In this document: positions 489 through 55,798 of the stretch, piece by piece
Position numbering within the stretch: position 1 is the stretch's first letter
Layout: every line of letters starts with the position of its first letter
Virus record (IMG/VR): IMGVR_UViG_3300042900_000713
Location: 39,886 to 103,885 of that record
Source of the DNA: a virus
Taxonomy: Duplodnaviria; Heunggongvirae; Uroviricota; Caudoviricetes
DNA: 64,000 bases
Direction: 5' to 3' (one strand)
Position numbers and translations under genes: made by a program
The notes under the pieces: generated by a model
Databases searched by the model: none
Told to the model about the DNA's origin: nothing
The model's input: only the letters and a program-made list of their open reading frames with translations

Positions 489-572
489 CGGTCGGTGTCG
501 GTGTTGACTCTTTAATCCTAGTCGGTCAGGAGGGGGACCCGTGAGTCCCCCGAACCAGTTGTCAGACTGTCC
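489..572 (-). promoter_or_regulatory. PeSL-like cassette E2 (subfamily A)
   Basis: ttgactctttaatcctagtcggtcagg + GGGGGA…TCCCCC hairpin + box ccagttgtcagactgtcc. Confidence 0.6.
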
Positions 573-750
573 CGGCAGCGGGGATCCGTTTCTCAACTTC
601 TCGAGAATTGCGACCGGCGCCAGTGGCAGCATAAAATCGGGTTTTTGCGCCACCGACGCGGGAGCATACGAGTTCGCTACGCTTTGGTTTCGCAGTGGGC
701 AGGATGGTGACGGTGAAAGTCTGACCGTCAATGATCTCGATGGTGTTCAT
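562..750 (-). CDS. hypothetical protein 62 aa; C-terminal ~15 aa encoded by cassette E2
   Basis: ATG after E3 leader; stop inside E2 box (…GTV*). Confidence 0.3.
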   Translation of the reverse strand: MNTIEIIDGQTFTVTILPTAKPKRSELVCSRVGGAKTRFYAATGAGRNSREVEKRIPAAGTV

Positions 751-837
751 TGGTCTCGTGTGCGGTGTTGACTCTTTAATCCTAGTCGGTCAGGAGGGGG
801 GAACCGTGTCCCCCTTGTGCCGGTTGCTAGATTGTCA
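751..837 (-). promoter_or_regulatory. PeSL-like cassette E3 (subfamily A)
   Basis: Near-identical to E4 over ~85 bp including the first codon of the downstream gene. Confidence 0.65.
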
Positions 838-1089
838 CAGCATCTCGATCAGATGCATCATCGTGGTGATCTGAACCGGGGTCTGCCAGATGATGACATC
901 TTCCAACATATTGCCATTCGGGCGCATTACACCAACCTCGAAAGTGTCGTGCTGAATGTCACCTTTGAGTCCAGAATCCTTCGGACCCGCAACTACACTA
1001 ATGGTCCAATAGTTCCGGAAAGTGTACTCTGCGCGAGTGCCACCTTTGACTACACTGTGATCGAAGAAGTTCAGATCGGAGAAGTTCAT
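835..1089 (-). CDS. hypothetical protein 84 aa
   Basis: ATG follows E4 leader; stop in E3 box. Confidence 0.5.
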   Translation of the reverse strand: MNFSDLNFFDHSVVKGGTRAEYTFRNYWTISVVAGPKDSGLKGDIQHDTFEVGVMRPNGNMLEDVIIWQTPVQITTMMHLIEML

Positions 1090-1175
1090 TGGTCTCGTGT
1101 GCGGTGTTGACTCTTTAATCCTAGTCGGTCAGGAGGGGGAACCGTGTCCCCCTTGTGCCGGTTCTTCAAGTGTCT
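1090..1175 (-). promoter_or_regulatory. PeSL-like cassette E4 (subfamily A)
   Basis: ggtctcgtgtgcggtgttgactctttaatcctagtcggtcaggagggggaaccgtgtcccccttgtgccggttcttcaagtgtc. Confidence 0.65.
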
Positions 1176-1366
1176 TGGAGTTTTATTTGGGCATTATTCC
1201 AACGGCATACCGCACGATGTTTTGTGCCACAATCTTTGGTTGATGTGTGGTTATTATCACAAATCACCTTCCACATATCACGAAAATCCCAATCTTCAAT
1301 ACATTTTGCTTTTGCACCACATCTTGCACAAGGGGTAATGGGTGGAGTTTTAATTTTCTGTGCCAT
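1166..1366 (-). CDS. Cys-rich small protein 66 aa
   Basis: ATG follows E5 TATAAT promoter; stop TGA in E4 box. Confidence 0.5.
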   Translation of the reverse strand: MAQKIKTPPITPCARCGAKAKCIEDWDFRDMWKVICDNNHTSTKDCGTKHRAVCRWNNAQIKLQDT

Positions 1367-1446
1367 CAGTTCTCTGTGTGTATGAAACTATTATAAGGCA
1401 TCCAGAGGCATCCAGAGCACCCCTTGTGCCACTGATCAGACTGTCA
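1367..1446 (-). promoter_or_regulatory. cassette E5 (box + TATAAT -10)
   Basis: Minus: CTGATCAGTGGCACAAGG…GCCTTATAATAGTTTCATACACACAGAG…ATG. Confidence 0.6.
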
Positions 1447-1762
1447 CAAGGTATTGCCAGTTCTGATAGGTTTGCTTTACATCATCAGAGAATCTTACCA
1501 GTTCAGGATAACCTTCGCAGCGAATCCAAAGATAACAAATGATGCATAAGTCTTTAACTTGTGCATATGTTTTTTGAATAAGATCTTTACCACCATTCTT
1601 ATACCATTGTGCAATCTTTGTGCAAATGAAGGAAACAACAGCAACAGAAACAGCAACAAAAACAATACAAACATTGATCAGATTGTAAAAGTGTTTTTTG
1701 TACTCGATCTTTGAAAGTACACTGATCAGATCGTCAACGGGAGGAAAAGATGCGGTAAACAT
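1436..1762 (-). CDS. small membrane protein (~108 aa, one TM)
   Basis: Internal ATG at 1760-1762 preceded by E6 and GGGAtgtgtcTCCCC hairpin; hydrophobic stretch VCIVFVAVSVAVVSFI. Confidence 0.5.
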   Translation of the reverse strand: MFTASFPPVDDLISVLSKIEYKKHFYNLINVCIVFVAVSVAVVSFICTKIAQWYKNGGKDLIQKTYAQVKDLCIICYLWIRCEGYPELVRFSDDVKQTYQNWQYLVTV

Positions 1763-1860
1763 TGTTTTCTGATGAGGGGGGAGACACATCCCTCACAAGA
1801 TTTAAGATAACAGAAAATCAGGGGTCGTGGCGATCTTATGTGCCAGTTGTCAGACTGTCC
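1763..1860 (-). promoter_or_regulatory. cassette E6 (box + leader hairpin)
   Basis: atgtgccagttgtcagactgtcc box; GAGGGATGTGTCTCCCCCCTC hairpin before ATG. Confidence 0.5.
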
Positions 1861-1985
1861 ACCTTGGTGACCTTATGGGTCTGATGATGCTGTAGGATAA
1901 GGGGACAATCAGCAAAGACAGCAGAGGGGTATCTGCTTGATCAATCCATCGCCACTGAAGCACCTCTCAAATAGTAAGATAAAAA

Positions 1986-2225: not shown

Positions 2226-2316
2226 GGTGGTTGGGTGTGTCTTTGGTTGACTCTTTAATCCTAGTCGGTCCAAAGGGGGAACCGAGTCCCCCTTGTGCCA
2301 GTTGTCAGAGTGTCAC
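2226..2316 (-). promoter_or_regulatory. PeSL-like cassette E7 (subfamily A)
   Basis: ttgactctttaatcctagtcggtccaaagggggaaccgagtcccccttgtgccagttgtcagagtgtcac. Confidence 0.65.
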
Positions 2317-2622
2317 AGCAGAATCAAACTCTTCAATCTTACCATCATAAGCAATAAACCAAGTGTGATTTTTCTGATAGACAGATTCATCACCCTTACC
2401 ATTCTCCCGAAGGAGAGCATTAAGGCGAGACTTAGTTGTTTTAGTCTTCCAACCGCAATGATGAATAGTAATGAAACCTTCACCAATCTCGGCAATCTTA
2501 TGACCGTGAAGGTAAACTCGGGAAACTTCGTTACCCTCTTCATACTCAACACGAGTATTATCAAGGGACCAATCCTTACGGTTAAGGATTGCTGCGTTCA
2601 TCAGGGTTTCGATCTTACGCAT
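2305..2622 (-). CDS. hypothetical protein 105 aa
   Basis: ATG after E8 leader; stop in E7 box. Confidence 0.55.
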   Translation of the reverse strand: MRKIETLMNAAILNRKDWSLDNTRVEYEEGNEVSRVYLHGHKIAEIGEGFITIHHCGWKTKTTKSRLNALLRENGKGDESVYQKNHTWFIAYDGKIEEFDSAVTL

Positions 2623-2708
2623 GGTTTGAAGTGGTTTGGTTGACTCTGTAATCTTAAGGGGTCCGAAGGGGGAACCGTGTCCCCCTTGTGCCAGTTGTCA
2701 GAGTGTCA
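2623..2708 (-). promoter_or_regulatory. PeSL-like cassette E8 (A variant, -10 TAAGAT)
   Basis: ttgactctgtaatcttaagg + gggggaaccgtgtccccc + box. Confidence 0.6.
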
Positions 2709-2942
2709 CGCTGCCACTAGTTCAGTCGTGGGGATGAGCATACGCTCAGCAACCCAACGGCGGTAGGTTTGACCAATCGAACCGGTAGGACTTTCAAGGT
2801 AGTTAACAATCACGTCCTCACTTTCAGTGACGAAAGTGTAAACATTATTCAGATTGCCCTGAAAAGTGATGCTAACTTCTTGACCTTCGACATCAACAGA
2901 AGCGATGCAGGAAGATTGTTGCTCAGTAAAAGTGAAGTTCAT
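2706..2942 (-). CDS. hypothetical protein 78 aa
   Basis: ORF ends in E8 box. Confidence 0.5.
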   Translation of the reverse strand: MNFTFTEQQSSCIASVDVEGQEVSITFQGNLNNVYTFVTESEDVIVNYLESPTGSIGQTYRRWVAERMLIPTTELVAA

Positions 2943-3160: not shown

Positions 3161-3243
3161 TGGTTTGCCTTTGGTTGACTTACTTAAGATAACAGATCTT
3201 CAGGGTCTTGTGTGAGATCTCGTGCCACTTTGGAAACTGGCAC
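3161..3243 (-). promoter_or_regulatory. PeSL-like cassette E9 (subfamily B; palindromic box GTGCCA-N10-TGGCAC)
   Basis: ggttgacttacttaagata…cgtgccactttggaaactggcac; duplicate of E10. Confidence 0.6.
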
Positions 3244-3274
3244 ATCTCGACGAGATTGTAGTCTCGACTAGATT

Positions 3275-3427: not shown

Positions 3428-3504
3428 TGGTTTGCCTTTGGTTGACTTACTTAAGATACAGGATTTTCAGGGTCCTGTGTGAGATCGTGTGCCACTTTGG
3501 AAAC
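3428..3504 (-). promoter_or_regulatory. PeSL-like cassette E10 (subfamily B)
   Basis: ~80-bp duplicate of E9 including MTTTDT codons. Confidence 0.6.
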
Positions 3505-3636
3505 TGGCACACGTAGGTTCATTGGTGAGTTAAAAAATCTACGGAATGCAGTAACAATAATGATACCCGTAGAAACTACACCAATCAAACCCAAAAAAGT
3601 AACCGTATCACCAGTGAAGTTGTAAGTTTCAATCAT
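3451..3636 (-). CDS. small membrane protein; C-terminal part read from cassette E10
   Basis: Hydrophobic N-terminal 40 aa; ORF continues through E10. Confidence 0.35.
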   Translation of the reverse strand: MIETYNFTGDTVTFLGLIGVVSTGIIIVTAFRRFFNSPMNLRVPVSKVAHDLTQDPENPVS

Positions 3637-3791: not shown

Positions 3792-3876
3792 TTGTTGTCT
3801 TTGGTGTGACTTGTTTATCATAGCAGCAGTTTAGAGACTTGCCTAGGTCTGTTGTGCCAGTTCTTATTCTGTCACA
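3792..3876 (-). promoter_or_regulatory. cassette E11 (subfamily D, -10 TATGAT)
   Basis: ttatcatagcagcagtttagagacttgcctaggtctgttgtgccagttcttattctgtcac; ~60 bp near-identical to E20. Confidence 0.6.
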
Positions 3877-4103: not shown

Positions 4104-4186
4104 GATGTTTGAGGTGGTTGACTTGTTAATCTTAAGGGATCAGAGGGGGATCTCATGTCCCCCTTGTGCCAGTTGTCAGACCGTCA
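4104..4186 (-). promoter_or_regulatory. PeSL-like cassette E12 (hairpin GGGGGAtctcatgTCCCCC)
   Basis: Compensatory loop change relative to E3/E4 hairpin; -10 TAAGAT; box at fixed 31 bp. Confidence 0.6.
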
Positions 4187-4354
4187 CATCATACTTCATA
4201 AAACTTATAGTGGCGAATCTCTGACTGATAGAATGCTTCATCTTCAGAATCATTACAGAACCCGAGAAGATAGTTGCAAAGTTCGACCCGATGATTGCAA
4301 ACATCTTGCAGAATCTCAGGATTGCGTTGAAAGCAGTTGTTGAAATCGCGAATC
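4187..4354 (-). CDS. Cys-rich small protein 55 aa
   Basis: ATG after E13 leader CAAAGACACCCAAC; stop next to E12 box. Confidence 0.4.
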
Positions 4355-4440
4355 ATGTTGGGTGTCTTTGGTTGACTTGTTTAGTATAAGGCACCCAGAG
4401 CGGATCTTGGGTGCCTGTCTGTGCCAGTTGTCAGACCGTC
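4355..4440 (-). promoter_or_regulatory. PeSL-like cassette E13 (subfamily C, -10 TATACT)
   Basis: Hairpin ggcacccagagcggatcttgggtgcc + box gtgccagttgtcagaccgtcac. Confidence 0.6.
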
Positions 4441-4642
4441 ACATCAGGTCTTCATACTCACCAGAATCCATCGCATCTTCCAGTGCAGTCACCAGACCGT
4501 CGAAGTCTTCAGATGAAGGTAGGATACCAGTGAGAATGTTGACCAGATCACCATACTCTTCGCGGAGTTCGTCCAGATACTCTTTGCGATCAGCGTAACC
4601 GTTATCAGTGTAGACGGACATGAGTGGTTCGGTGTTGAACAA
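4439..4642 (-). CDS. acidic small protein 67 aa (alternative start MSVYT at ~4619)
   Basis: Degenerate cassette upstream; stop in E13 box. Confidence 0.45.
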   Translation of the reverse strand: MFNTEPLMSVYTDNGYADRKEYLDELREEYGDLVNILTGILPSSEDFDGLVTALEDAMDSGEYEDLM

Positions 4643-4712
4643 ATGTAATGTAGCAGCAATTCTCCACCAACACCAGAGTCCTGTGCCACTTCAGGAACCG
4701 TCTGAGAGGTGC
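4643..4712 (-). promoter_or_regulatory. degenerate cassette (box variant gtgccacttcaggaaccgtctga)
   Basis: Box-like sequence upstream of 4439..4642. Confidence 0.35.
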
Positions 4713-5064: not shown

Positions 5065-5144
5065 GACGTTTGTTTGGTTGACTTGTTTAGTATAAGGCAC
5101 CCAGAGCGGATCTTAGGTGCCTCGTGTGCCAGTTCTCAAACTGG
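5065..5144 (-). promoter_or_regulatory. PeSL-like cassette E14 (subfamily C)
   Basis: ggttgacttgtttagtataaggcacccagagcggatcttaggtgcc + box. Confidence 0.6.
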
Positions 5145-5315
5145 TCTGCTGTTCTTTGCTGCATGAATCAATTCTTCTTCTGACAGAATGTCAATGTAAC
5201 CATTCGGATAAACACTGCAGAAGTGATCCAGTGCATCATCTGCTTCATCATAAGAAGCATAAACCGCCAGAGTCTCATATGCATCTGGAGTGATCTCAAC
5301 GATGTAGTGTTCCAT
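5136..5315 (-). CDS. acidic small protein 59 aa
   Basis: ATG after E15 leader CAAAGGACACCTCTC; stop in E14 box. Confidence 0.45.
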   Translation of the reverse strand: MEHYIVEITPDAYETLAVYASYDEADDALDHFCSVYPNGYIDILSEEELIHAAKNSRPV

Positions 5316-5400
5316 GAGAGGTGTCCTTTGGTTGACTCTGTAATCATAAGGTACCTACAGGGTCTTCTAGGTGCCTCTTGTGCCAGTTCTTAAAGTGTCC
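5316..5400 (-). promoter_or_regulatory. PeSL-like cassette E15 (hairpin ggtacctacagggtcttctaggtgcc, -10 TATGAT)
   Basis: Different hairpin sequence, same architecture and spacing. Confidence 0.6.
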
Positions 5401-5735
5401 AATTCTTATTTCCAAACACCAAAATATGACTCCTATGTGATAAGATTAAAATACAAAATCTTATCAGGAATCGTCCTGTTATTTTTTATTTCTTACACTT
5501 CTCATCCTAACCGATCTGTTAGAGACTTATAATATGATGTTTCACTGTTTGATTTATTATGTCCTGTTTTATTACGCCGGAGACAGGATATTATGACCAA
5601 CTCCCTCTTTTTATAATGATCAATAACACATAATGTATCATAAGATCATTTGGTTCTTTTAAGATTGTTACCTCTTAGTGCCGTAGCAAGAGTTCAATTG
5701 CTTATCAGAATTAATGTTCTTATGTATCTATTTAG

Positions 5736-6013: not shown

Positions 6014-6026
6014 CTTATGCTATCTC

Positions 6027-6305: not shown

Positions 6306-6377
6306 CGGGTGTCCTTGGGTTACCTGAGTATCTTACACGCCTTCTAGGGTCTTACAGGCATCTCTCAGACGGTTCTT
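6306..6377 (-). promoter_or_regulatory. cassette E16 (box variant, -10 TAAGAT)
   Basis: cagacggttcttaaagtggcac. Confidence 0.45.
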
Positions 6378-6511
6378 AAAGTGGCACAGCAACTCACCAT
6401 AAGGACTGTCTTATGTCTTATGATGTATTCACAACCAAACGAGGTCTGATGTAGGACCAGATGTAAATGATCGTCACTGAACCTACCAAAAAATAATAAG
6501 AATTAAAACAT

Positions 6512-7058: not shown

Positions 7059-7166
7059 TGAAGTTGGTTGGTAGTGTGGTCGGTTGGTTGCCCTTCCGAT
7101 GCACTTACTATACGGCATCAGAAGGGCGGTCTTATGGGATTTTAGACCAGTTTGCGAGGTGTCACA
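7059..7166 (-). promoter_or_regulatory. cassette E17 (box + -10 TATAGT)
   Basis: ccagtttgcgaggtgtcac box; GATGCcgtatagtaagtGCATC. Confidence 0.5.
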
Positions 7167-9924: not shown

Positions 9925-9985
9925 TGGAGTTGTTTATTATAGGGTCGTCTGAGATGTTCCGTGTGTCAGTTGTTCAGGTGTCCAT
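9925..9985 (-). promoter_or_regulatory. cassette E19 (box variant + TATAAT)
   Basis: Minus: CTGAACAACTGACACACGG…CCCTATAATAAACAACTCCAATG. Confidence 0.5.
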
Positions 9986-11273: not shown

Positions 11274-11366
11274 TGTTGGTCTTAGGAGATTAGTGCTGAT
11301 TACCTTGTTATTATAGCAGCAGTTTAGAGACTTGCTTAGGTCTGTTGTGTCAGTTCCTAATGCACC
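11274..11366 (-). promoter_or_regulatory. cassette E20 (subfamily D, TATAAT)
   Basis: ttattatagcagcagtttagagacttgcttaggtctgttgtgtcagttcctaatgcacc. Confidence 0.6.
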
Positions 11367-11746: not shown

Positions 11747-11828
11747 GTGTGGTGTTCTTGATACCTCTGTATTATAGGGGCACACAGGAGCATGTGGAGT
11801 GGTGTGTGTGCCAGTTTGAGAAGTGGAT
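11747..11828 (-). promoter_or_regulatory. cassette E21 (box + TATAAT)
   Basis: gtgccagtttgagaagtggatc box; CCCCTATAATACAGAGG. Confidence 0.55.
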
Positions 11829-13258
11829 CAGAAAAGTTTACCGTGTGGTGCAAAAATGTCACTTAATTTACGATTCTTCTTTAATGAAATGTAGAGCATG
11901 TCAGTCCAAAATTCTTTTTGATCTTTTTGCTCCAAAGATTCTGATAAAAACTCAAGTTGCATCAATTTACTGATTGCAATGTTTTTATTTTTAGTTTCAT
12001 CTGAGTTGAATAAATCTTCAATGTATTGAGAAAATTCCTTTCTATTTTTAATATCTGTCTTTACTCTTTTACGCTTTATCTTTACAAATAAAGTTTCATA
12101 TTTTTTTTGCACTCCTTGCTTTTTAAATTCCTCTAATGTATTTGGATATTTGCTATAGTTATTTTCAAATTTTTTATCTAATAAAGTTTCAACCAAATCA
12201 ACTGGAGCCTTTCCTCCTCTTCCACCTGAATCTTTGATATTACTCTCAAATTTTAAATTTGATATTTTTTTATCTGATCCAGAGTTACTTTTAATTTGTA
12301 TTTTATTTTTATCCAGAGTTACTTGAGATTGCTCTACATATTCTTTTGTACCCTTCTGGTACATATTATATTCTATTTCTATTTTATCTACATTATACTC
12401 ATCATCCATATCTTCACTATTTAAGAGAAAATCTTTCATATTTACATAAACAAATCTTGCTTGATTAGCAGTAACCTTTTTAAGAGAAACTCCAATTAAA
12501 TATTCTTTTTTTATTAAATTTCTAAGAATATCATTTAATTCTGATAATGTTTGTGTTTTGGGTTTTCCTTGGATTGATTGTGATAAGATATCTTTAATTT
12601 CAGATTTTTTATCTTTACGAACAATCCATATGTCACTTGGATTCCAAGTTTCATATCTACCAGAATATACCTTCTTCAAACAGATTTTAATAAATTTAGT
12701 AAAATTATCCCCACTCTCTTTATATTCAATTTTTTCCCATTCTTTACCTTTAAATCTTTCTGTTATTTTTTTATTTTGCTTTAGATAAGATTCAAACCAT
12801 TCTGTTGGAATATGATTATTATTAAATATCTTTTTTAATTCAAGATATTCTGGATCATTTTTAACATCTTTAAGTGATTCAAAAGTTACGTTACCAATTA
12901 GTGATCTGTTGAAAATCCAAACAGATCCATCTTCTTGAGTTTTGGTAGTGAGTATTGGTGATTGTTTAGTAATAAACTTTATATCAATTTTTTGGGTTAC
13001 TATTTTACCAGATTTTTTTTCTTTATAGAGAATGGTGATAATTTTATTACTCTTATTTGCATAATTTAAAGTTGCTGTTGGATCTATTTTTTTCAAAGTT
13101 GCTGGCAATTTAATTAATTTTACAACATCAGAATAAGAACTATCAAACCTAGATTTTGATAGTTCTATATCAATTTCTCCATATTTAATTGAAATATCTA
13201 CGTTTACATCTGTATAAACCTTATCTTCTAATAAAGTCAATATTTCTTTTTCTTTCAT
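11828..13258 (-). CDS. Lys-rich 476-aa protein of unknown function on an AT-rich island
   Basis: Long ORF; GC content far below neighbours; stop in E21 box. Confidence 0.6.
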   Translation of the reverse strand: MKEKEILTLLEDKVYTDVNVDISIKYGEIDIELSKSRFDSSYSDVVKLIKLPATLKKIDPTATLNYANKSNKIITILYKEKKSGKIVTQKIDIKFITKQSPILTTKTQEDGSVWIFNRSLIGNVTFESLKDVKNDPEYLELKKIFNNNHIPTEWFESYLKQNKKITERFKGKEWEKIEYKESGDNFTKFIKICLKKVYSGRYETWNPSDIWIVRKDKKSEIKDILSQSIQGKPKTQTLSELNDILRNLIKKEYLIGVSLKKVTANQARFVYVNMKDFLLNSEDMDDEYNVDKIEIEYNMYQKGTKEYVEQSQVTLDKNKIQIKSNSGSDKKISNLKFESNIKDSGGRGGKAPVDLVETLLDKKFENNYSKYPNTLEEFKKQGVQKKYETLFVKIKRKRVKTDIKNRKEFSQYIEDLFNSDETKNKNIAISKLMQLEFLSESLEQKDQKEFWTDMLYISLKKNRKLSDIFAPHGKLF

Positions 13259-14984: not shown

Positions 14985-15066
14985 TTCAGTTCGTTGGTTG
15001 TTCTTTCATAGTATAGTATCCCACACACCATCCCAGAGCACCCCTTGTGCCGGTTCTTCAAGTGTC
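14985..15066 (-). promoter_or_regulatory. cassette E22 (box + TATACT)
   Basis: ccccttgtgccggttcttcaagtgtc. Confidence 0.55.
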
Positions 15067-15288
15067 TCCCCTCACTTCCTCATAAGTCGTCACATCTAAA
15101 CGGGATTTGCCTACCCACATTTTACCACAAGAAAGGCAATTCACTTTGAAAGTTGTTATATTTGCATCGGGGTTAGTATTCACTCCATTTTTATCATAGA
15201 CTGGAATATATGATGCAAGAGTTGATGATCCACCACTATGAGAAAAAGCACAATCCTCTCTAGGACATTCTGGATTTGGGTTTTTCAT
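15058..15288 (-). CDS. Cys-rich zinc-ribbon-like small protein
   Basis: CPRED…CLSCG; stop in E22 box. Confidence 0.5.
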   Translation of the reverse strand: MKNPNPECPREDCAFSHSGGSSTLASYIPVYDKNGVNTNPDANITTFKVNCLSCGKMWVGKSRLDVTTYEEVRGDT

Positions 15289-18483: not shown

Positions 18484-18563
18484 TGTGGTTCTGTGTGTAT
18501 GAGTGTATTATAGGGTATTATGGACGGTTGTGGAGTTCCCTTGTGACGGTTCAAAGAGTGTCC
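18484..18563 (-). promoter_or_regulatory. cassette E23 (subfamily E: TATAAT + CATACACA leader)
   Basis: gtgtatgagtgtattatagggtat…cttgtgacggttcaaagagtgtcc. Confidence 0.6.
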
Positions 18564-18569
18564 TACCCC

Positions 18570-20874: not shown

Positions 20875-20957
20875 TTGGAGTTTGTCTTGTGTATGAGTGT
20901 ATTATAAGGCATCTGGTGACCCTGTGGAGGGTGTTTGTGCCGGTTTCTCAAGTGTCC
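20875..20957 (-). promoter_or_regulatory. cassette E24 (subfamily E; TCCACA-17-TATAAT)
   Basis: ~80% identical to E25 over 80 bp. Confidence 0.65.
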
Positions 20958-21145
20958 CCAACAGAGTTGAGAGCAAGACCAATTCTACTAATTTTATTTT
21001 CTAAACTATTGTAATACTGATAAACATAATTATCATCAAGATTATCATTTTTTGCTTTCCTCACAAGAGCAAGCAAATCGTTAATCTCATAATTACTAAA
21101 GGGTTCTACCGTCCATTCACCGATAGATACAACTTTTTTAGTCAT
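20948..21145 (-). CDS. hypothetical protein 65 aa
   Basis: ATG after E25; stop in E24 box. Confidence 0.45.
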   Translation of the reverse strand: MTKKVVSIGEWTVEPFSNYEINDLLALVRKAKNDNLDDNYVYQYYNSLENKISRIGLALNSVGDT

Positions 21146-21227
21146 CAGGTGTCTTTGTGTGTATGAATGTATTATAGGGCATCTGGTGCCCCTGTGAAGT
21201 ACCCTTGTGCCGGTTTCTCAAGTGTCC
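21146..21227 (-). promoter_or_regulatory. cassette E25 (subfamily E; TTCACA-17-TATAAT)
   Basis: gtgtatgaatgtattatagggcatctggtgcccctgtgaagtacccttgtgccggtttctcaagtgtcc. Confidence 0.65.
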
Positions 21228-21257
21228 TCGTTCTCTATTTCCGAATAGCGAATAATA

Positions 21258-32660: not shown

Positions 32661-32664
32661 CAGT

Positions 32665-34047: not shown

Positions 34048-34128
34048 TTGAGGTCTTTGTGTGTATGAGAGTATTATAGGGCATCAGGACACAAAGTTCA
34101 AGTGCCTCTGTGACGGTTCAAGGAGTGT
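34048..34128 (-). promoter_or_regulatory. cassette E32 (subfamily E; TTGAAC-18-TATAAT)
   Basis: gtgtatgagagtattatagggcatcagg…ctgtgacggttcaaggagtgtcc. Confidence 0.6.
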
Positions 34129-34130
34129 CC

Positions 34131-34319
34131 TCAATAATCCGTATAAGTTTTCAGTTCTCCACACTTTTTACATCGTAGAGTGTATTTGGAACCAATGGGA
34201 AAGTGTTTTCCTGTTAAAATATCTTCAGGAGTAACCTCAAAATCAAATACTTTTTTCTTGCCTTCTATCTCCCATTCGTGAAAGCATCCAGTCAGTAGAA
34301 ATTCAAGTAGTTTTTTCAT
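34131..34319 (-). CDS. zinc-ribbon small protein ~62 aa
   Basis: Internal ATG (MKKLLEF) ATGA-coupled; CxxC…CKKCG; stop in E32 box. Confidence 0.45.
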   Translation of the reverse strand: MKKLLEFLLTGCFHEWEIEGKKKVFDFEVTPEDILTGKHFPIGSKYTLRCKKCGELKTYTDY

Positions 34320-35658: not shown

Positions 35659-35740
35659 TGAGGGTGCGTTCTTACCCTACTATCATATGGCATCCTGTGA
35701 GGCAGTGGAGTCGTCTTGGGACAGTTCTTCAAGTGTCTTT
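35659..35740 (-). promoter_or_regulatory. cassette E33 (box + TATGAT)
   Basis: gggacagttcttcaagtgtc. Confidence 0.5.
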
Positions 35741-37135: not shown

Positions 37136-37213
37136 GATGTGTTTGGTTGACTTGTTTAGTATAGGATGTCTTGATCGTCTGTGAGAGACCCTTGTGCCAG
37201 TTGATCAGGTGAC
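37136..37213 (-). promoter_or_regulatory. cassette E34 (subfamily C leader, TATACT)
   Basis: ggttgacttgtttagtatagg…cccttgtgccagttgatcaggtgacc. Confidence 0.55.
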
Positions 37214-37455
37214 CTCTTGGCATTCATTTCATCTTCAATTTTACCACGCTCATAGCATCCACTCAGGTACAGTGGAGCAACCAGAATGCCCATAAGTCCA
37301 GCACCACTCGCAAAACCCCTAATATCATTACTCTTATTCAGTCCTGCAAGTCCACCCATAAGAAGAAATGCGATGAGAAGAGCAGTACCTGGATGATCAC
37401 CACAGGAATCAAGATGTCCAATTCCTTTGATTGTGCGACGAATTGTTTGAATCAT
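37156..37455 (-). CDS. small membrane protein 99 aa
   Basis: Two hydrophobic segments; stop in E34 box. Confidence 0.5.
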   Translation of the reverse strand: MIQTIRRTIKGIGHLDSCGDHPGTALLIAFLLMGGLAGLNKSNDIRGFASGAGLMGILVAPLYLSGCYERGKIEDEMNAKRSPDQLAQGSLTDDQDILY

Positions 37456-38373: not shown

Positions 38374-38456
38374 GAGTGCTGTATGTGTACTTTAATAGTA
38401 TAGGGTGAATTGAATCAGTTGTCAGTGGTCAGTGTGCCAGTTCAATAAGTGTCACA
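38374..38456 (-). promoter_or_regulatory. cassette E35 (box + TATACT)
   Basis: cagtgtgccagttcaataagtgtcac; 31-bp spacing. Confidence 0.55.
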
Positions 38457-44347: not shown

Positions 44348-44428
44348 TGAATTTTTCTTGGTTATGAAAACATTATACCATAAAAAAGAGGGTCTTGAGA
44401 ACCCTCTGTGTGCCAGTTTGAAAAGTGG
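44348..44428 (-). terminator. E36: box + intrinsic terminator hairpin + T6 overlapping extended -10 TGGTATAAT
   Basis: Minus: AACTGGCACACAGAGGGTTCTCAAGACCCTCTTTTTTATGGTATAATG. Confidence 0.65.
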
Positions 44429-44434
44429 TTTTAA

Positions 44435-47244: not shown

Positions 47245-47322
47245 TACTTTGATTTATAAGGTCATTATAGCAAAAAAGGAGGGCGTTGAAACCCTCCTTG
47301 TACCAGTTTAAAAATTGTCTAC
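47245..47322 (-). terminator. E37: terminator hairpin + T6 + TATAAT (degenerate box)
   Basis: Minus: GGAGGGTTTCAACGCCCTCCTTTTTTGCTATAATGACC. Confidence 0.65.
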
Positions 47323-48512: not shown

Positions 48513-48590
48513 AATTTGATTTTGTTTACAAGGTTATTATAGAGTGTTTGAGTGAGAAGTGAGAGCATCCTTGTGCCAGTTTAGCAATCG
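48513..48590 (-). promoter_or_regulatory. cassette E38 (box + TATAAT)
   Basis: ccttgtgccagtttagcaatcgccac; 31-bp spacing. Confidence 0.55.
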
Positions 48591-48717
48591 CCACTCTCCA
48601 GGCAGGCACTGACATCCTGAATTTCCTTTGCCTTGCGCGTGAGTTCCTTAAGATGCAGTGAGAGGATGTTGAGATCGTCTTCTGTGCGTCCCATAAGAGC
48701 ATCATAGACTCTCTCAA
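48526..48717 (-). CDS. hypothetical protein; C-terminus read through cassette E38
   Basis: ORF continues through box and -10 until TAA in TATAATAA. Confidence 0.35.
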   Translation of the reverse strand: MRESMMLLWDAQKTISTSSHCILRNSRARQRKFRMSVPAWRVAIAKLAQGCSHFSLKHSIITL

Positions 48718-49299: not shown

Positions 49300-49384
49300 A
49301 ATAAGATTCCTTTGAGTTACTGTGTAATTATACTAAAAAAGGGTTGCTTGTGACAACCCCCTGTGACAGTTTTTAAATTGGCTC
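49300..49384 (-). terminator. E39: box variant + terminator hairpin + T6 + TATAAT
   Basis: Minus: GGGGGTTGTCACAAGCAACCCTTTTTTAGTATAATTAC. Confidence 0.6.
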
Positions 49385-49547
49385 AACCACCCCGTTCCTG
49401 AAGAGACCTTACCATCAATTTGGAAAATTTTTCCATTTGTTCAAAATGGACTGTTGCTGGATTATCGTTGATTGCTAGTTTAAGTGCGATTAGTTCTTCC
49501 CATTCTTCAGTACTTAATGGTTTAACATTAAATGTAGTAAATGTCAT
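49383..49547 (-). CDS. hypothetical protein 54 aa with late-type promoter
   Basis: TATAAATA 30 nt upstream of ATG; stop in E39 box; plus ORF 49420..49605 is a shadow. Confidence 0.4.
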   Translation of the reverse strand: MTFTTFNVKPLSTEEWEELIALKLAINDNPATVHFEQMEKFSKLMVRSLQERGG

Positions 49548-52442: not shown

Positions 52443-52466
52443 TTGGTTGGTTGCTTTATGAGTATA

Positions 52467-52670
52467 TTATACAAGATTTTTGGGTTCTTTGGTGAACCTT
52501 GTGACACCTGTAGGATTGTCCTCACGGTGCTTCTTGATAAAAATGTTTGCCTGGCGAACCGTGCTCACATCTTCCAGTTGCTCACCATTGTAAATAATGA
52601 CAAATCTCTTTCCCCAAGGGACTGTTGCATACCCATCCTCAAGAATAAATCCTCCCGTCTTACTTGCCAT
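52467..52670 (-). CDS. hypothetical protein 67 aa
   Basis: Minus ORF. Confidence 0.45.
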   Translation of the reverse strand: MASKTGGFILEDGYATVPWGKRFVIIYNGEQLEDVSTVRQANIFIKKHREDNPTGVTRFTKEPKNLV

Positions 52671-53238: not shown

Positions 53239-53807
53239 TATTCAGTGAGAAATTGTTTTTCGTAGTTTAAAAGTTCTTGTGGTGTTTCTATGTAGTTACT
53301 GACAGAATCTGTTGGTTTATGATACCAGTTTCTACCGTAGTTTCGCTTCATCAGTTGAATATCTAAATGTTGATACTTTTTATCAGTAGGAACATAAATC
53401 TTGAAGTCACCTTTTTGATTTGATGTCAGTAATGAGAGTTGGCGATTCTCTTCTGAGGTGATATCAACAGTTGTACATGCAATGTAAAAGAGTTTCTTAA
53501 ATTGATCATATTCATTCAAGTAAATCTCTGAGTGATCCATAATCATTCTTCCCATAAATTGAGGAGAATAGCAATGATCTTTACAGAGTGGCCATTTGGA
53601 ATCCTCTTGTTTTTTCTGAAGAGCAGTGAGTGTAATGTACCCTGAAGGAATGGAGAGAGCGTGTACTAGATCGTAATAAGGTCTTGTAACTCCTCGTAGT
53701 ACGTCTTTGTCGTTTAGTTTTGACCTCCATAGATCTAGATTTGATGTGAGTGCATTGAACGCAATGAGACAGTAAGTATCAATACGATATTGAGTTGTAG
53801 GTTTCAT
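53238..53807 (-). CDS. hypothetical protein 189 aa
   Basis: Coupled. Confidence 0.55.
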   Translation of the reverse strand: MKPTTQYRIDTYCLIAFNALTSNLDLWRSKLNDKDVLRGVTRPYYDLVHALSIPSGYITLTALQKKQEDSKWPLCKDHCYSPQFMGRMIMDHSEIYLNEYDQFKKLFYIACTTVDITSEENRQLSLLTSNQKGDFKIYVPTDKKYQHLDIQLMKRNYGRNWYHKPTDSVSNYIETPQELLNYEKQFLTE

Positions 53808-53810
53808 GAA

Positions 53811-55169
53811 TTACTTTTTGATTACGTCAGCAACGAAGTTACCCTTTACAAATACCTCGTCAACCACATTCTGCACACGGCGAGCAGTTGCAATGCCAAC
53901 TTTGTTATTGTACACGGGAATGACCACTTTGCCAAATGGTTTGATGTAGTTAGAGAAATCACCTGGTTCCAGTTCACCAGACTTCATACGGGCAGTATCA
54001 TCAGGATTCACCCGAATGCAACGACCAATGCTCTGAACAGTAGAGATAAAGTTTTGTTGACGAAGAAAGATACAAGACTGAATACCAGGAACACTGATAC
54101 CCTCGGTGAGAATACCAATATGTAGAACAACAAACTTACGATTGGAGTCAGCACCATACTCACTCAACGTATCCAGAAACTCAGTACGTGAAACCTTACG
54201 CTTACCCACATATGCTCCCAACTTGGAGGTAATATGCAGAACTTCATAACCATTGTCGTGCATTTCCTCCATAAAGGAAGTTTCAGAGAGCATCTTTATC
54301 ATTACTTTGGTGTTCGGTGCCACCACCAGAACCTTGTTCATATCATCATCATTAAAAATAGTATCACATAGAGTGTAGAAGTCACGTTCGTGTGCAGTTT
54401 CTTTGTCACGGAATGAACCAACTTCCGTCACCGCAACCACAGGAGGAAGAATACTACCATTGAGAAGCAGTTCAGGTGCCTTGACATTATGAATCTTGGA
54501 ACCAAATACCTCAGCATTATTGTTACCGGGTTTTGATGCAACTTGACTGAACTTAGGAGTTGCAGTGAGAGAATAGAAGTTCTTTGCAGTCTTACTGATT
54601 GCCTCTACAGCATCAAAGAACTTACCATTTACGGCATTATGACATTCATCCAAGTAAACAACATCAATGTCCAGTTCTGCTTTTACAATTTTATCCAGAG
54701 AATGATAAGTGGTAAAGATGAGTTTGTGACCTTCTGTCTTCTCATGCCAGTAAGCAAGTTCTAGAAAGTCAGTGATACGAGTGTGCTTGGTTTCACCACT
54801 ATGAATGTGGGCGATAGAAGCATTATCAATAAACTTCTCAAACTCTTCGCTGAGTTGCTGGCAAAGAACTAGTTTCGGAGCAACCACTAGAATGGTCTGG
54901 TTACTTTCACCTTCGGTGAAACGATGCTTCGCATCGGCAATAATCATAATAGTTTTACCCGCACTAGTAGGAGCGACTGTAAGCATCCTAGAGTGCTGTC
55001 GCATCAGTCCAAAGACTTCTTGCTGGTGAGGACGCAAATCAAACATGGGTAGTTTCCTTGTGTACGAGATCATTATAGCAGTAAAAAAGTCCACTAGGAG
55101 GTTCCCAGTGGACGGTTTCTTAAGTGGTTCAGAGGCTTTAGAGATACAATTGTTTCTCAAAAGGAACAA
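53811..55169 (-). CDS. superfamily 2 DEAD/DEAH-box helicase (ResIII-like)
   Basis: Motif I APTSAGKT, motif II LDECH, motif III-like SLTATP; ATG after E40 terminator/TATAAT. Confidence 0.75.
   Translation of the reverse strand: MFLLRNNCISKASEPLKKPSTGNLLVDFFTAIMISYTRKLPMFDLRPHQQEVFGLMRQHSRMLTVAPTSAGKTIMIIADAKHRFTEGESNQTILVVAPKLVLCQQLSEEFEKFIDNASIAHIHSGETKHTRITDFLELAYWHEKTEGHKLIFTTYHSLDKIVKAELDIDVVYLDECHNAVNGKFFDAVEAISKTAKNFYSLTATPKFSQVASKPGNNNAEVFGSKIHNVKAPELLLNGSILPPVVAVTEVGSFRDKETAHERDFYTLCDTIFNDDDMNKVLVVAPNTKVMIKMLSETSFMEEMHDNGYEVLHITSKLGAYVGKRKVSRTEFLDTLSEYGADSNRKFVVLHIGILTEGISVPGIQSCIFLRQQNFISTVQSIGRCIRVNPDDTARMKSGELEPGDFSNYIKPFGKVVIPVYNNKVGIATARRVQNVVDEVFVKGNFVADVIKK
55050..55120 (-). 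terminator. E40: box variant + terminator hairpin + T6 + TATAAT
   Basis: Minus: GTCCACTgggaacctcctAGTGGACTTTTTTACTGCTATAATG. Confidence 0.6.
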
Positions 55170-55187
55170 ACCTATTCTACACAGTTT

Positions 55188-55613
55188 TTATAGGGTTGTC
55201 AAGTAATTTAAATATTCTTGATAAAGTTCATTTTCTCTTTTATATGCTGCTATTTCATGTGATTGTTGATAATACTCCAAATCTTCCATACACTCACCCA
55301 TATAATACCTTTTGGAGGACTTGAGTTTCAGTTCCCCCTTTACCCACTGTAGAATATGTTCACACTCATGTAAAAGTGTTTTCACATAGGTTTCCTTATC
55401 CAAGTGTGTATCCAGTTCTATTAGGAAACTTCTTGGACGATATGATCCTTCAGCAATATCACAATATCCATAAGCACCGTCTTTTTTCAAACTTCGGTGA
55501 AGAACTTCAATATCCAGTTTGTGTCGAGGAAGATACTCAGACACAAACCAACACACTACTTTTTTGCAAAGACGCTTGGAATAACCGTATCCAGTGGTTT
55601 GTAGAAAAATCAT
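55188..55613 (-). CDS. small HExxH protein (possible zinc metallopeptidase fold)
   Basis: LLHECEHILQW; ATG after E41 hairpin/TATAGT. Confidence 0.45.
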   Translation of the reverse strand: MIFLQTTGYGYSKRLCKKVVCWFVSEYLPRHKLDIEVLHRSLKKDGAYGYCDIAEGSYRPRSFLIELDTHLDKETYVKTLLHECEHILQWVKGELKLKSSKRYYMGECMEDLEYYQQSHEIAAYKRENELYQEYLNYLTTL

Positions 55614-55734
55614 TTAGAAAGAATTGAGAATGGTGTAGGTAACACGAGTTCCCCAGTTCATAAGAATCATAAAGGATCCTACGAAAAGCAGTCTCTCAAG
55701 GGTTGAAAAGGTCATCAGGTCTCTTGGGTTGCTC

Positions 55735-55798
55735 ACATACTATAAAGCACCTTGCAGGTGATCCTGAAGGTGCTTGTGACGGTTTGTGGAGTGGTTCT
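55735..55798 (-). promoter_or_regulatory. E41: box variant + hairpin + TATAGT
   Basis: Minus: GCACCTTcaggatcacctgcAAGGTGCTTTATAGTATG. Confidence 0.5.

What the first reader, a model, noticed from the sequence alone, without database searches (positions are those of the whole stretch)
489..55798. Genome-scale family of at least 40 promoter / stem-loop (PeSL-like) intergenic cassettes delimiting single-gene modules
Almost every intergenic gap on the minus strand carries the same three-part module. (1) A ~22-bp box, TGTGCCRGTT-N7-TGTCMC on the plus strand, that contains or abuts the upstream gene's stop codon. (2) A GC-rich stem-loop whose sequence differs between copies while pairing is preserved (gggggaaccgtgtccccc; gggggatctcatgtccccc; ggcacccagagcggatcttgggtgcc; ggtacctacagggtcttctaggtgcc; gagggttctcaagaccctc; gggttgcttgtgacaaccc), a covariation signature. 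(3) A sigma70-type -10 hexamer TATAMT, then a conserved leader (AGTCAACCAAAG or CATACACAAAG) and the next ATG. This matches the architecture of the mobile promoter-early stem-loop cassettes reported for other T4-type phages, here at unusually high density, with clear subfamilies and near-identical copies (E3/E4; E9/E10; E11/E20; E24/E25). They plausibly drive early transcription of each small accessory gene and act as recombination substrates that shuffle those genes.
Basis: partly seen in the sequence, partly recalled or inferred. Interest (0 to 1): 0.85.

Follow-up and report, generated by a model that had tools for sequence, protein, structure and literature searches.

The report
Cyanophage promoter cassettes with nested hairpins
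The repeats are real: about 38 compact promoter units of an uncultured T4-like cyanophage, each with a palindromic upstream box held at a fixed distance from a -10 element and a start codon, about half with a terminator-like hairpin packed between; the design is shared by cultured cyanophages, so it is a variant of a known kind, not a new system.

Summary
A matrix scan finds 38 boxes on the minus strand (235-55798) against about 1 in shuffles.

Three spacings are rigid:
- box to -10: 29-31 nt
- -10 to ATG: 19-28 nt in 30 of 38 copies
- the upstream stop codon usually lies inside the box

The "22-bp box" is an imperfect 24-bp palindrome, TGTG(a/c)CAsTT-N4-AAsTGGCACA. Its dyad sits near -54.5. 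Its two halves do not covary as a stem, so it is a DNA protein site, not an RNA structure.

The same bipartite element occurs in at least 118 IMG/VR contigs (492 unique copies) and in cultured Syn9 and S-SRM01. Of 70 matching phage records, 66 are cyanophages. It is probably the early-gene regulatory element reported for Syn9 in 2016. I could not read that paper.

Hairpins are optional (17-18 of 38; 44% pooled) and vary in register. Some are canonical terminators. One class shows compensatory changes.

The PeSL-like reading is right on architecture. "Almost every gap" and "single-gene modules" hold only for 1-5.4 kb. A recombination role is plausible (80-nt identical cassettes beside unrelated genes) but not specifically supported.

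Verdict: new variant of a known kind.

The parts
55732..55798 (-). cassette: box 55798-55775, spacer 30 with 13-bp hairpin (-18.4 kcal), -10 TATAGT 55744-55739; next long ORF starts at 55613
52443..52523 (-). cassette: box 52523-52500, spacer 28, -10 TATAAT 52471-52466, ATG 52442
49300..49385 (-). cassette: box 49385-49362, hairpin plus T-run (terminator-like, holds TTGTCA -35-like hexamer), -10 TATAAT 49332-49327, ATG 49299
48513..48595 (-). cassette without hairpin: box 48595-48572, -10 TATAAT 48541-48536, ATG 48512
47245..47322 (-). cassette: box 47322-47299, hairpin plus T6 terminator, -10 TATAAT 47269-47264, ATG 47244 (RNA ligase RnlA-like gene)
44348..44432 (-). cassette: box 44432-44409, hairpin plus T6 terminator, TGgTATAAT extended -10 44377-44372, ATG 44347
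38374..38456 (-). cassette without hairpin: box 38456-38433, -10 TATACT, ATG 38373
37136..37216 (-). cassette without hairpin: box 37216-37193, -10 TATACT, leader AAGTCAACCAAA, ATG 37135
35659..35740 (-). cassette without hairpin: box 35740-35717, -10 TATGAT, ATG 35658 (HNH endonuclease gene)
34048..34132 (-). cassette: box 34132-34109, weak hairpin (-8.8), -10 TATAAT, leader CTCATACACACAAAG, ATG 34047
32613..32679 (-). cassette without hairpin: box 32679-32656, -10 TATACT 32625-32620; long ORF starts only at 32398
31491..31584 (-). cassette: box 31584-31561, hairpin whose 5' arm starts in the box, then GTTTTCTGC, TGcTATAAT, ATG 31490
30641..30721 (-). cassette: box 30721-30698, hairpin (-12.6), TGcTATGAT, ATG 30640
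25785..25863 (-). cassette: box 25863-25840, weak hairpin (-7.9), -10 TATACT, ATG 25784
21146..21229 (-). cassette: box 21229-21206, -10 TATAAT, leader TTCATACACACAAAG, ATG 21145
20875..20959 (-). cassette, 84% identical to the one at 21229 with unrelated flanks: box 20959-20936, -10 TATAAT, ATG 20874
18484..18565 (-). cassette without hairpin: box 18565-18542, -10 TATAAT, ATG 18483
14985..15069 (-). cassette without hairpin: box 15069-15046, -10 TATACT, ATG 14984
11747..11830 (-). cassette: box 11830-11807, -10 TATAAT, ATG 11746
11274..11355 (-). degenerate copy: right half-site only (AACTGACACA from 11355), 31 nt after the 9-mer AACTGACAC (30 by the measure used for the other copies), TGcTATAAT, leader AACAAGGTAATCA, ATG 11273
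   Evidence: below the matrix threshold
9925..9985 (-). cassette with spacer 20 nt (one helical turn shorter): box 9985-9962, -10 TATAAT, ATG 9924 (methyltransferase-like gene)
7059..7166 (-). weak copy (12 bits): box 7166-7143, -10 TATAGT, ATG 7058
6306..6388 (-). weak copy (13 bits): box 6388-6365, -10 TAAGAT, ATG 6305
5316..5402 (-). cassette: box 5402-5379, long hairpin GGCACCTAG...CTGTAGGTACC ending at the -10 (TATGAT), leader AGTCAACCAAAGG, ATG 5315
5065..5148 (-). cassette: box 5148-5125, long hairpin (-14.7), -10 TATACT, ATG 5064; whole module homologous to L107 665-905
4622..4705 (-). cassette: box 4705-4682, -10 TACATT (29 or 34 nt, tandem TACATTACATT), ATG 4621
4357..4443 (-). cassette: box 4443-4420, long hairpin (-16.9), -10 TATACT, ATG 4356
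4104..4188 (-). cassette: box 4188-4165, GGGGGA...TCCCCC hairpin, -10 TAAGAT, ATG 4103
3792..3876 (-). cassette without hairpin: box 3876-3853, TGcTATGAT, ATG 3791
3428..3511 (-). cassette with near-perfect 24-bp palindromic box 3511-3488, -10 TATCTT, ATG 3427
3161..3244 (-). cassette 94% identical to 3511; the downstream genes share the same opening codons (probable paralogues; downstream identity 0.61 is near the background maximum 0.58): box 3244-3221, -10 TATCTT, ATG 3160
2623..2710 (-). cassette: box 2710-2687, GGGGGACACGGTTCCCCC hairpin, -10 TAAGAT, ATG 2622 (Kyano_Gp96 family gene)
2226..2317 (-). cassette: box 2317-2294, GGGGGACTCGGTTCCCCC hairpin, -10 TAGGAT, ATG 2225
1790..1862 (-). 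cassette without hairpin: box 1862-1839, -10 TATCTT, ATG 1789
1367..1448 (-). cassette: box 1448-1425, -10 TATAAT, leader TTTCATACACACAGAG, ATG 1366
1090..1177 (-). cassette: box 1177-1154, GGGGGACACGGTTCCCCC hairpin, -10 TAGGAT, ATG 1089; about 80 nt identical to cassette 839 with unrelated flanks
751..839 (-). cassette: box 839-816, same hairpin, -10 TAGGAT, ATG 750
489..574 (-). cassette with decayed box (11.7 bits) 574-551, hairpin (-15.9), -10 TAGGAT, ATG 488
167..235 (-). cassette just outside the finding's range: box 235-212, GGGGGAGAATCCCTCCCCC hairpin, poor -10 (TACACT at 26 nt), ATG 166

Best explanation
Each cassette is a compact intergenic transcription unit boundary of the type used by T4-like cyanophages. 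It is about 85-90 bp long and has four parts in fixed register.

1. A 24-bp imperfect palindrome, TGTG(a/c)CAsTT-N4-AAsTGGCACA, overlaps the stop codon of the upstream gene. If the -10 hexamer is at -12 to -7, the palindrome occupies about -66 to -43 and its dyad is near -54.5. I infer that it is bound on double-stranded DNA by a dimeric factor that helps host RNA polymerase use a promoter with a weak or missing -35. The geometry resembles an activator site contacting polymerase from about -55.

2. A 29/30-bp spacer has almost no sequence constraint. In about half of the copies it therefore also encodes a GC-rich hairpin. That hairpin lies in the 3' untranslated tail of the upstream transcript and acts there as an intrinsic terminator or 3'-end protector. 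Where a -35-like hexamer exists, it can sit in the hairpin loop.

3. A -10 hexamer follows.

4. A short CA-rich leader of about 16-20 nt follows, then the ATG.

Shown: the sequence anatomy, the rigid spacings, the lack of stem-type covariation in the box, the excess of foldable spacers, and the distribution in cyanophages.

Inferred: promoter activity, early timing, an activator rather than a repressor, and termination at the hairpins.
For: - The box is far above chance: 38 copies against about 1 and 28 against 0.1.
- Box-to-(-10) spacing is 29-31 nt in the window. Among 707 strong boxes pooled from IMG/VR loci, 348 strong -10s sit at 29 or 30 nt. The only far outliers are 20 and 41 nt, one helical turn either way.
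- The -10-to-ATG distance is 19-28 nt in 30 of 38 copies.
- The two box halves are not complementary beyond chance. The central variable positions are the same base, with 106 Watson-Crick pairs against 203 expected. The upstream stop codon falls at different positions and frames. So neither an RNA stem nor a coded peptide explains the conservation.
- Spacers fold better than shuffles in 17 of 38 window copies and 44% of 492 pooled copies. Mean energy is -8.0 against -4.3 kcal/mol.
- Three hairpins are called terminator-like by an independent scan, at 44407, 47299 and 49362.
- The long-hairpin class has changes on both sides at all 12 pairs, with 0 of 500 shuffles as high.
- A -35-like hexamer is present in 33% of copies against 9% of shuffles. 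In S-SRM01 copies TTGAAA sits 17 nt from the -10 inside the hairpin.
- The same element is in Syn9 upstream of g32 and several small genes, with 0 in shuffles. S-SRM01 has at least 10 copies in 20 kb. At least 118 IMG/VR contigs carry it. 66 of 70 matching phage records are cyanophages.
- No Rfam family matches.
Against: - No transcript data were available. Start sites, timing and termination are all inferred.
- The factor that would bind the box is unidentified.
- A factor that must act before any phage protein is made has to be host-encoded or carried in the virion. Nothing here shows either.
- The same-base correlation at the two central positions does not fit a simple symmetric dimer site.
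- About a third of copies have a usable -35, so the box may modulate rather than be required.
- Most GC hairpins in 1-5 kb lack a U-tract, so termination there is uncertain.
- The link to the published Syn9 early element rests on my memory of an abstract. The paper could not be read.
Confidence: 0.7

Rival explanations
1. The cassettes exist mainly as PeSL-type mobile recombination modules. Their about 80-100 bp of shared sequence is the substrate for homologous exchange, or the target of a specific recombinase. This exchange excises, inserts and swaps the ORFans between them. Promoter function is carried along.
For: - Cassette pairs are 84-94% identical while their flanks are at background identity: 1177/839, 2710/2317 and 21229/20959.
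- In the alignment the identity block runs from the right half of the box to the ATG and stops there.
- Homologous genes occur in a different order in related contigs. In L107 the homologue of gene 7162-7362 is joined to module 4896-5134 about 8 nt from the box right half.
- PeSLs are defined with this architecture and GGGG...CCCC stems (PMC2839356).
Against: - Homology breakpoints are enriched 2.6-fold at boxes but also 2.2-fold at gene junctions without a cassette. Per junction the rates are 0.79 and 0.68.
- 16 contigs of the same population from other samples are collinear, with no indel at any cassette.
- The box, the -10 and the spacings are conserved across phages whose cassettes share no recent ancestry. 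This points to selection for function, not only to copying.
Confidence: 0.15
2. The palindromic box is an operator for a phage-made repressor that switches this gene class off at the transition to the next phase. The promoters themselves need only the -10, with or without a weak -35 or extended -10.
For: - The palindromic shape is typical of operators.
- A third of copies have a -35-like hexamer and 19% have TGn, so some promoters might work unaided.
- The element marks one gene class in a phage with temporal classes. This last point is established knowledge for T4-like cyanophages.
Against: - An operator upstream of -43 does not overlap polymerase's core contacts.
- A repressor would not obviously require a spacing fixed to within 1 bp, nor outliers at exactly one helical turn.
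- Two thirds of copies lack any -35.
Confidence: 0.12
3. The box works in RNA, as a hairpin, a processing site or a stability element in the 3' end of the upstream message.
For: It lies at the very end of the upstream ORF, and perfect-palindrome copies such as 3511-3488 could fold.
Against: - There is no excess complementarity between the halves, and there is anti-complementarity at the variable positions. The commonest left half gives an A.G mismatch.
- The distance to the -10, a DNA signal for the next gene, is fixed.
- No Rfam match was found.
Confidence: 0.03

Closest known systems
Early-gene regulatory element of T4-like cyanophages (Doron et al. 2016, ISME J, Syn9 and P-TIM40)
   Same: - The same phage family is involved. 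The window's helicase is 42-48% identical to those of Kyanoviridae.
- The element found here is present in the Syn9 genome upstream of g32 and of small genes at 48.5-53 kb, with the same spacing and a similar GTCAAAG leader.
- It is found almost only in cyanophage records, including two with host NATL2A.
- It is abundant in viral metagenome contigs. From my memory of the abstract, the paper states the same for its element.
   Different: - I could not read the paper, so identity with the published motif is unverified.
- The density here is far higher: 38 in 56 kb, against about 8 credible copies in the 177 kb of Syn9.
- Hairpins nested in the spacer are frequent here. The Syn9 copies listed show few obvious ones.
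PeSLs (promoter-early stem-loops) of T4-like phages RB49/phi1, T4/PST and KVP40/nt-1 (Arbiol 2010; Comeau 2014)
   Same: [quoted passage not shown]
- They are dense in regions of small ORFans.
- Stems are often G-run/C-run.
- The stem-loop may overlap the -35 or lie between -35 and -10 (PMC2839356; PMC4122927).
- Near-identical copies flank unrelated genes.
   Different: - PeSLs have a near-consensus sigma70 -35/-10 pair and an AT-rich upstream region. Here the -35 is absent in two thirds of copies, and the upstream region is a GC-containing palindrome at a fixed distance.
- Only about half of the copies have a stem-loop.
- Indel association and mini-circles are not shown here.
- A study of S-PM2 judged dense PeSLs absent from that cyanophage (PMC4503421).
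Ogr/Delta/B-dependent late promoters of P2, P4 and 186
   Same: - Promoters have a poor -35 and an upstream element of dyad symmetry beginning TGT and ending ACA (TGT-N12-ACA; PMC3931495).
- From my own knowledge, that element is centred near -55 and is read by an activator that contacts the alpha subunit.
- The dyad here is at about -54.5 by inference from the spacings.
   Different: - The dyad here is TGTG-N16-CACA, 24 bp rather than 18.
- No protein with the Ogr cysteine pattern is encoded in the window.
- Those are late promoters of temperate proteobacterial phages.
- This is a functional analogy only.

Membership tests
PeSL (Arbiol 2010; Comeau 2014) | Early-type promoter with a -10 hexamer a short, fixed distance before the downstream start codon | tested here: met
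   A -10-like hexamer is present in all 38 copies. The ATG lies 19-28 nt after it in 30 of 38.
PeSL (Arbiol 2010; Comeau 2014) | Sigma70-like -35 hexamer 17 +/- 1 bp upstream of the -10, with an AT-rich region upstream of it | tested here: not met
   At least 4 of 6 matches to TTGACA occur in only 33% of 492 copies, and in 38% of window copies. The upstream region is the GC-containing palindrome, not AT-rich.
PeSL (Arbiol 2010; Comeau 2014) | Stable stem-loop within or next to the promoter, acting as terminator for upstream transcription | tested here: inconclusive
   A hairpin better than 95% of shuffles occurs in 17 of 38 copies. Only 3-6 have a U-tract. Termination itself was not measured.
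PeSL (Arbiol 2010; Comeau 2014) | Concentrated in hyperplastic regions between small genes of unknown function | tested here: met
   There are about 154 mostly small minus-strand genes, nearly all without family matches. 17 cassettes lie in 5.4 kb.
PeSL (Arbiol 2010; Comeau 2014) | Associated with insertions, deletions and replacements between close relatives; mini-circle formation | tested here: inconclusive
   Same-population contigs are collinear. Breakpoints against distant relatives are no more frequent per junction than at cassette-less junctions. Mini-circles cannot be tested here.
Cyanophage early-gene regulatory element (Doron 2016) | Present upstream of genes in Syn9 and conserved among T4-like cyanophages and in metagenomes | tested here: met
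   Syn9 sites are at 1132, 48558, 51000, 51211, 52996, 127492 and 148742. S-SRM01 has at least 10. 66 of 70 phage records are cyanophages. At least 118 IMG/VR contigs carry it.
Cyanophage early-gene regulatory element (Doron 2016) | Lies upstream of mapped early transcription start sites; sequence equals the published motif | not testable with these tools
   The paper and its start-site tables are not held. No open paper searched gives the motif.
P2 Ogr-type activator-dependent promoter | Dyad TGT-N12-ACA | tested here: not met
   The dyad here is TGTG-N16-CACA. The consensus for P2 is from PMC3931495.
P2 Ogr-type activator-dependent promoter | Small zinc-finger activator (CX2CX22CX4C) encoded by the phage | tested here: not met
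   A pattern search of the window's ORFs finds four zinc-ribbon-like proteins, none with that spacing. Only 64 kb of the genome was seen.
Sigma54 promoter (TGGCAC-N5-TTGC) | GC dinucleotide 12 bp after the GG of TGGCAC, start site about 12 bp further on | tested here: not met
   Reading the copies, no conserved TTGC follows TGGCAC at N5. Instead a TATAAT-type hexamer follows at 30 nt. From my own knowledge, cyanobacteria lack sigma54.
Intrinsic (Rho-independent) terminator | GC-rich hairpin followed directly by a U-tract | tested here: met
   This is met for cassettes 44432, 47322 and 49385 and plausibly 31584 and 30721. In the pooled set, 52 of 223 hairpins have at least 4 T in the next 8 nt. 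It is not met for most hairpins in 1-5 kb.

The most novel reading that the evidence does not exclude
The box-plus-(-10) unit defines a distinct promoter class. An as yet unknown dimeric factor, either a host protein or one delivered with the virion, binds about 54 bp upstream in rigid register and replaces -35 recognition. This would let cyanophages that lack Alt, Mod, MotA and AsiA capture host polymerase at once. Freeing the -43 to -13 interval from sequence constraint then allows the terminator of the upstream gene to be written inside the promoter of the next gene. The about 500 natural variants collected here would define the factor's recognition code.
Probability: 0.35. Interest if true: 0.7.

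Novelty: new variant of a known kind. Interest (0 to 1): 0.5.

Why it matters
T4-like cyanophages kill a large share of marine and freshwater picocyanobacteria. They lack the T4 proteins that redirect host polymerase, so how their first genes are switched on is not settled.

This window and its relatives provide three things:
- a precise anatomy of that promoter type: a 24-bp palindrome, a spacing fixed to 1 bp, and a dyad near -54.5
- hundreds of natural variants of the element
- two cultured systems, Syn9 and S-SRM01, that carry it

Together these make the search for the binding factor a direct experiment.

The window also shows an economical layout. The stop codon, the upstream promoter element, the terminator hairpin and the -10 overlap within about 60 bp. 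That is useful for annotating uncultured cyanophage genomes and for designing compact expression units.

It is not a new kind of system.

Tried and rejected
- Sigma54 reading of TGGCAC: rejected. No TTGC at N5, and a TATAAT follows at 30 nt.
- Box as RNA stem or cruciform: rejected by the lack of complementarity between its halves.
- Box as a conserved C-terminal peptide: rejected because the stop codons fall at several positions and frames.
- One conserved hairpin register: rejected. Column-wise complementarity over 278 gapless spacers is weak in every register.
- Known RNA families and tRNAs: none found.
- Close relatives among deposited phages by megablast: none found.
- Structural variants at cassettes within the same population: none found. 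Contigs from other samples are 99.7-100% identical and collinear, and the apparent differences were gene-calling differences.
- Breakpoint enrichment at cassettes: not specific.
- Literature: the Doron 2016 paper is not held. Seven other papers that cite it or discuss cyanophage transcription give no motif sequence. The S-SRM01 paper does not mention promoters. A search for TGGCAC with cyanophage found nothing relevant.
- Ogr-like zinc finger in the window: not found.
- I did not use the genome-contig scan to look for the box in host genomes. An exact pattern specific enough to avoid hundreds of chance hits would have missed a degenerate host regulon.

Full report
**What the window is.** All long ORFs run on the minus strand. 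A DEAD/DEAH-box helicase at 53811-55169 is 42-48% identical to helicases of Kyanoviridae. The best match is the freshwater Synechococcus phage S-SRM01. An RnlA-type RNA ligase and several methyltransferase and glycosyltransferase genes are present. One small gene belongs to Pfam Kyano_Gp96. No deposited phage is similar at the DNA level. The same sequence occurs in several metagenome assemblies. The window therefore comes from an uncultured T4-like cyanophage.

- I pooled 492 unique copies from this window and from IMG/VR contigs and built a position matrix.
- That matrix finds 38 boxes above 8 bits on the minus strand between 235 and 55798. Shuffles give about one.
- One more copy, at 11355, has only the right half.
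- The finding's coordinates, 489 and 55798, are the two ends of this series.

**Anatomy on the transcribed strand.** The unit reads as follows: a 24-nt box TGTG(a/c)CAsTT-N4-AAsTGGCACA, a spacer, a -10 hexamer, a leader, then ATG. Three distances are tight.
- Box to hexamer is 29-31 nt in 28 window copies.
- Hexamer to the ATG of an ORF of at least 35 aa is 19-28 nt in 30 of 38 copies.
- The stop codon of the upstream gene starts inside the box in 19 of 28 assignable cases.

Across all fetched loci there are 707 strong boxes. Among them, 348 strong -10 hexamers sit at 29 or 30 nt, and 30 more at 28 or 31 nt. The only far outliers are one at 20 nt (window 9985) and one at 41 nt. These are one helical turn shorter and longer. 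Precision of this kind is a property of double-stranded DNA read by a protein assembly.

**What the box is.** It is an imperfect inverted repeat. The copies at 3511 and 3244 are nearly perfect 24-bp palindromes and match the pattern on both strands. The two halves show no more Watson-Crick complementarity than independent columns would give. At the two central variable positions they carry the same base: C/C 225 times and G/G 97 times. Complementary bases occur 106 times against 203 expected. The commonest left half gives an A.G mismatch with the right half. A stem in RNA, or a cruciform, is therefore not what is conserved. Coding cannot explain it either, because the stop codon falls at several positions and frames. 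If the hexamer is at -12 to -7, the box spans about -66 to -43 and the dyad lies near -54.5. TGGCAC recalls sigma54 promoters, but no TTGC follows at N5 and a TATAAT-type hexamer follows at 30 nt.

**Where else it occurs.**
Many of these carry 5-14 cassettes per 10-15 kb on one strand. Several contigs are 170-284 kb long.
- The cultured phage Syn9 carries the element with the same spacing and a similar leader. It lies upstream of gene 32 and of small genes at 48.5-53 kb, and at 127.5 and 148.7 kb. Shuffled sequence gives none.
- S-SRM01 has at least ten copies in the 20 kb after its helicase. Its genome paper says nothing about promoters.
- A consensus cassette run by blastn against 50,697 phage records hits 70 records. 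Of these, 66 are cyanophages, including two whose host is Prochlorococcus NATL2A.
- From memory, the abstract of Doron et al. 2016 reports a novel regulatory element for early genes of Syn9 and P-TIM40 that is abundant in cyanophage genomes and metagenomes. I think this is that element. I could not read the paper, and no open paper I searched gives its sequence.

**The hairpins.**
- In the window, 17 of 38 spacers fold better than 95% of their own shuffles, and 18 reach -8 kcal/mol.
- In the pooled set the fraction is 44%, with a mean of -8.0 against -4.3 kcal/mol for shuffles.
- The 5' arm starts within 0-5 nt of the box. Two shapes recur.
- The first shape is a short GC stem followed by a T-run. 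An independent scan calls it terminator-like at 44407, 47299 and 49362.
- The second shape is a 11-12-bp stem that fills the spacer and ends at the hexamer.
- No single register is conserved.
- In the long class, all 12 pairs show changes on both sides: 72 cells against 22 in shuffles, with 0 of 500 shuffles as high. Slid partners drop to 32-60% paired. Those sequences were chosen because they fold in that register, so the percentage paired is partly built in. The variety of pair types is not.
The stem is optional.
- The hairpin lies upstream of the inferred start site. It is therefore part of the upstream transcript's 3' tail, 15-25 nt after that gene's stop codon.

**The -35.** A hexamer with at least 4 of 6 matches to TTGACA at 16-18 nt occurs in 33% of copies, against 9% of shuffles. 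At least 5 of 6 matches occur in 13%, against 1%. This holds equally in copies with and without hairpins. In S-SRM01 and several contigs the hexamer TTGAAA sits in the hairpin loop exactly 17 nt from the -10. Two thirds of copies have nothing recognisable. The generic two-hexamer scan finds few of the cassettes in 1-6 kb. A TGn extended -10 occurs in 19% of copies, and a (G/A)TGCC(C/T) block abutting the hexamer in 26%.

**Density and modules.** I called about 154 minus-strand genes in 1-56500. That gives one cassette per four genes. In 1-5.4 kb there are 17 cassettes, one per gene. Elsewhere runs of overlapping genes lie between cassettes. Of 47 gaps of at least 60 nt, 26 or more hold a cassette. 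Rough gene calls leave 12 cassettes unassigned to such a gap. About 21 gaps hold none. Five of the empty gaps carry the T4-type late octamer TATAAATA.

**Mobility.**
- Some cassettes are much more alike than their surroundings. The pairs 1177/839, 2710/2317 and 21229/20959 are 84-89% identical with flanks at background identity.
- In the alignment, 839 and 1177 are identical for about 80 nt, from the right half of the box to the codon after the ATG, and unrelated outside that block. The hairpin sequence is not constrained across the family. Shared hairpins therefore mean recent copying or gene conversion.
- Direct repeats of this length are adequate substrates for T4-type recombination, according to the discussion in PMC2839356.
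- Related contigs share single genes at 67-85% identity in a different order. In L107 the homologue of gene 7162-7362 is joined to module 4896-5134 about 8 nt from the box right half.
- However, ends of homology blocks are enriched 2.6-fold at boxes and 2.2-fold at junctions without a cassette. Per junction the rates are 0.79 and 0.68.
- Contigs of the same population from other samples show no rearrangement.
- Exchange at cassettes is plausible but not shown to be special.

**How it most likely works.** A dimeric factor binds the palindrome about 54 bp upstream. It helps host polymerase open a promoter defined mainly by its -10. The interval between the two is free to vary and often doubles as the terminator or 3' stabiliser of the preceding gene. 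A short CA-rich leader precedes the start codon. The closest mechanistic precedent I know is the Ogr-dependent late promoter of phage P2. That promoter has a dyad TGT-N12-ACA (PMC3931495). From my own knowledge it is centred near -55, has a poor -35, and is read by an activator that contacts the alpha subunit. The dyad here is longer, and no Ogr-like protein is seen, so this is analogy, not membership. If the genes are early, the factor must be a host protein or arrive with the virion. That step is inference. A repressor operator is the main alternative for the box. An RNA role is unlikely.

**Verdict.**
- The finding is real and well described in outline.
- The PeSL comparison is apt for the architecture.
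- The promoter itself is the cyanophage type, not a plain sigma70 promoter.
- Two claims are overstated (density and single-gene modules), and one is untested (recombination).
- It is a new variant of known kinds. I score interest at 0.5.

Noticed in passing
window 49585, 45608, 45136, 43121, 22174 (minus strand): The T4-type late-promoter octamer TATAAATA occurs five times on the minus strand and never on the plus strand. Each copy lies in an intergenic gap that lacks a cassette. Late-class genes therefore seem to be interspersed among the cassette-driven ones.
   Followed up: partly
window 1-4000: This segment is 44.6% GC, against 34-39% elsewhere. It is also where every gene has its own cassette and where the -10 hexamers are weakest (TAGGAT, TAAGAT, TATCTT). 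Contigs with similar cassettes (L082, L094) are 41-43% GC. The segment may come from a different lineage.
   Followed up: no
L129 3957-7652 (beyond window position 1): The JGI contig Ga0453103_0000019 was aligned indirectly, through L131 (100% identity over 4,854 nt), not to the window itself. By coordinate mapping it corresponds to window 1-3956 in reverse and continues past the window's low end. It holds at least six more cassette-like repeats there, at L129 4073-5548.
   Followed up: partly
pooled cassettes; in the window e.g. 3511-3488 and 2317-2294: The two central variable positions of the palindromic box carry the same base (C/C or G/G) far more often than complementary bases: 106 Watson-Crick pairs against 203 expected. 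Neither a stem nor a simple symmetric dimer site predicts this.
   Followed up: partly
window 21468-22139 and 42291-43088: These two genes of 223 and 265 aa are paralogues. Both match the same stretch of L026, L093 and L007. Each is preceded by TATAAATA rather than by a cassette.
   Followed up: no
window 35314-35658: An HNH endonuclease gene sits directly behind cassette 35740 (Pfam HNH, E = 3e-12). S-SRM01 also has an HNH gene and a NUMOD3 gene in its cassette region.
   Followed up: no
window 2014-1997, 4799-4774, 43156-43139, 55113-55089 (minus strand): Strong hairpin-plus-T-run terminators lie outside any cassette. The ones at 2014 and 4799 are followed by long non-coding stretches (1863-2030 and 4706-4896) inside the cassette-dense segment.
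   Followed up: no
window 5400-5735: About 330 nt contain no ORF of at least 40 aa on the minus strand. The stretch is AT-rich and has several short inverted repeats, unlike the tightly packed surroundings.
   Followed up: no
window 57038-59860: A 940-aa protein combines a methyltransferase domain, a glycosyltransferase domain and a C-terminal domain annotated in phage families as minor coat protein (DUF6445). It is followed by a 412/414-aa glycosyltransferase-methyltransferase fusion. No cassettes occur upstream of 55.8 kb.
   Followed up: no
window 38822-39007, 43200-43433, 49875-50075, 1166-1366: Several very small proteins carry four-cysteine zinc-ribbon patterns. None has the Ogr spacing. 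They were not examined as candidates for the box-binding factor.
   Followed up: no
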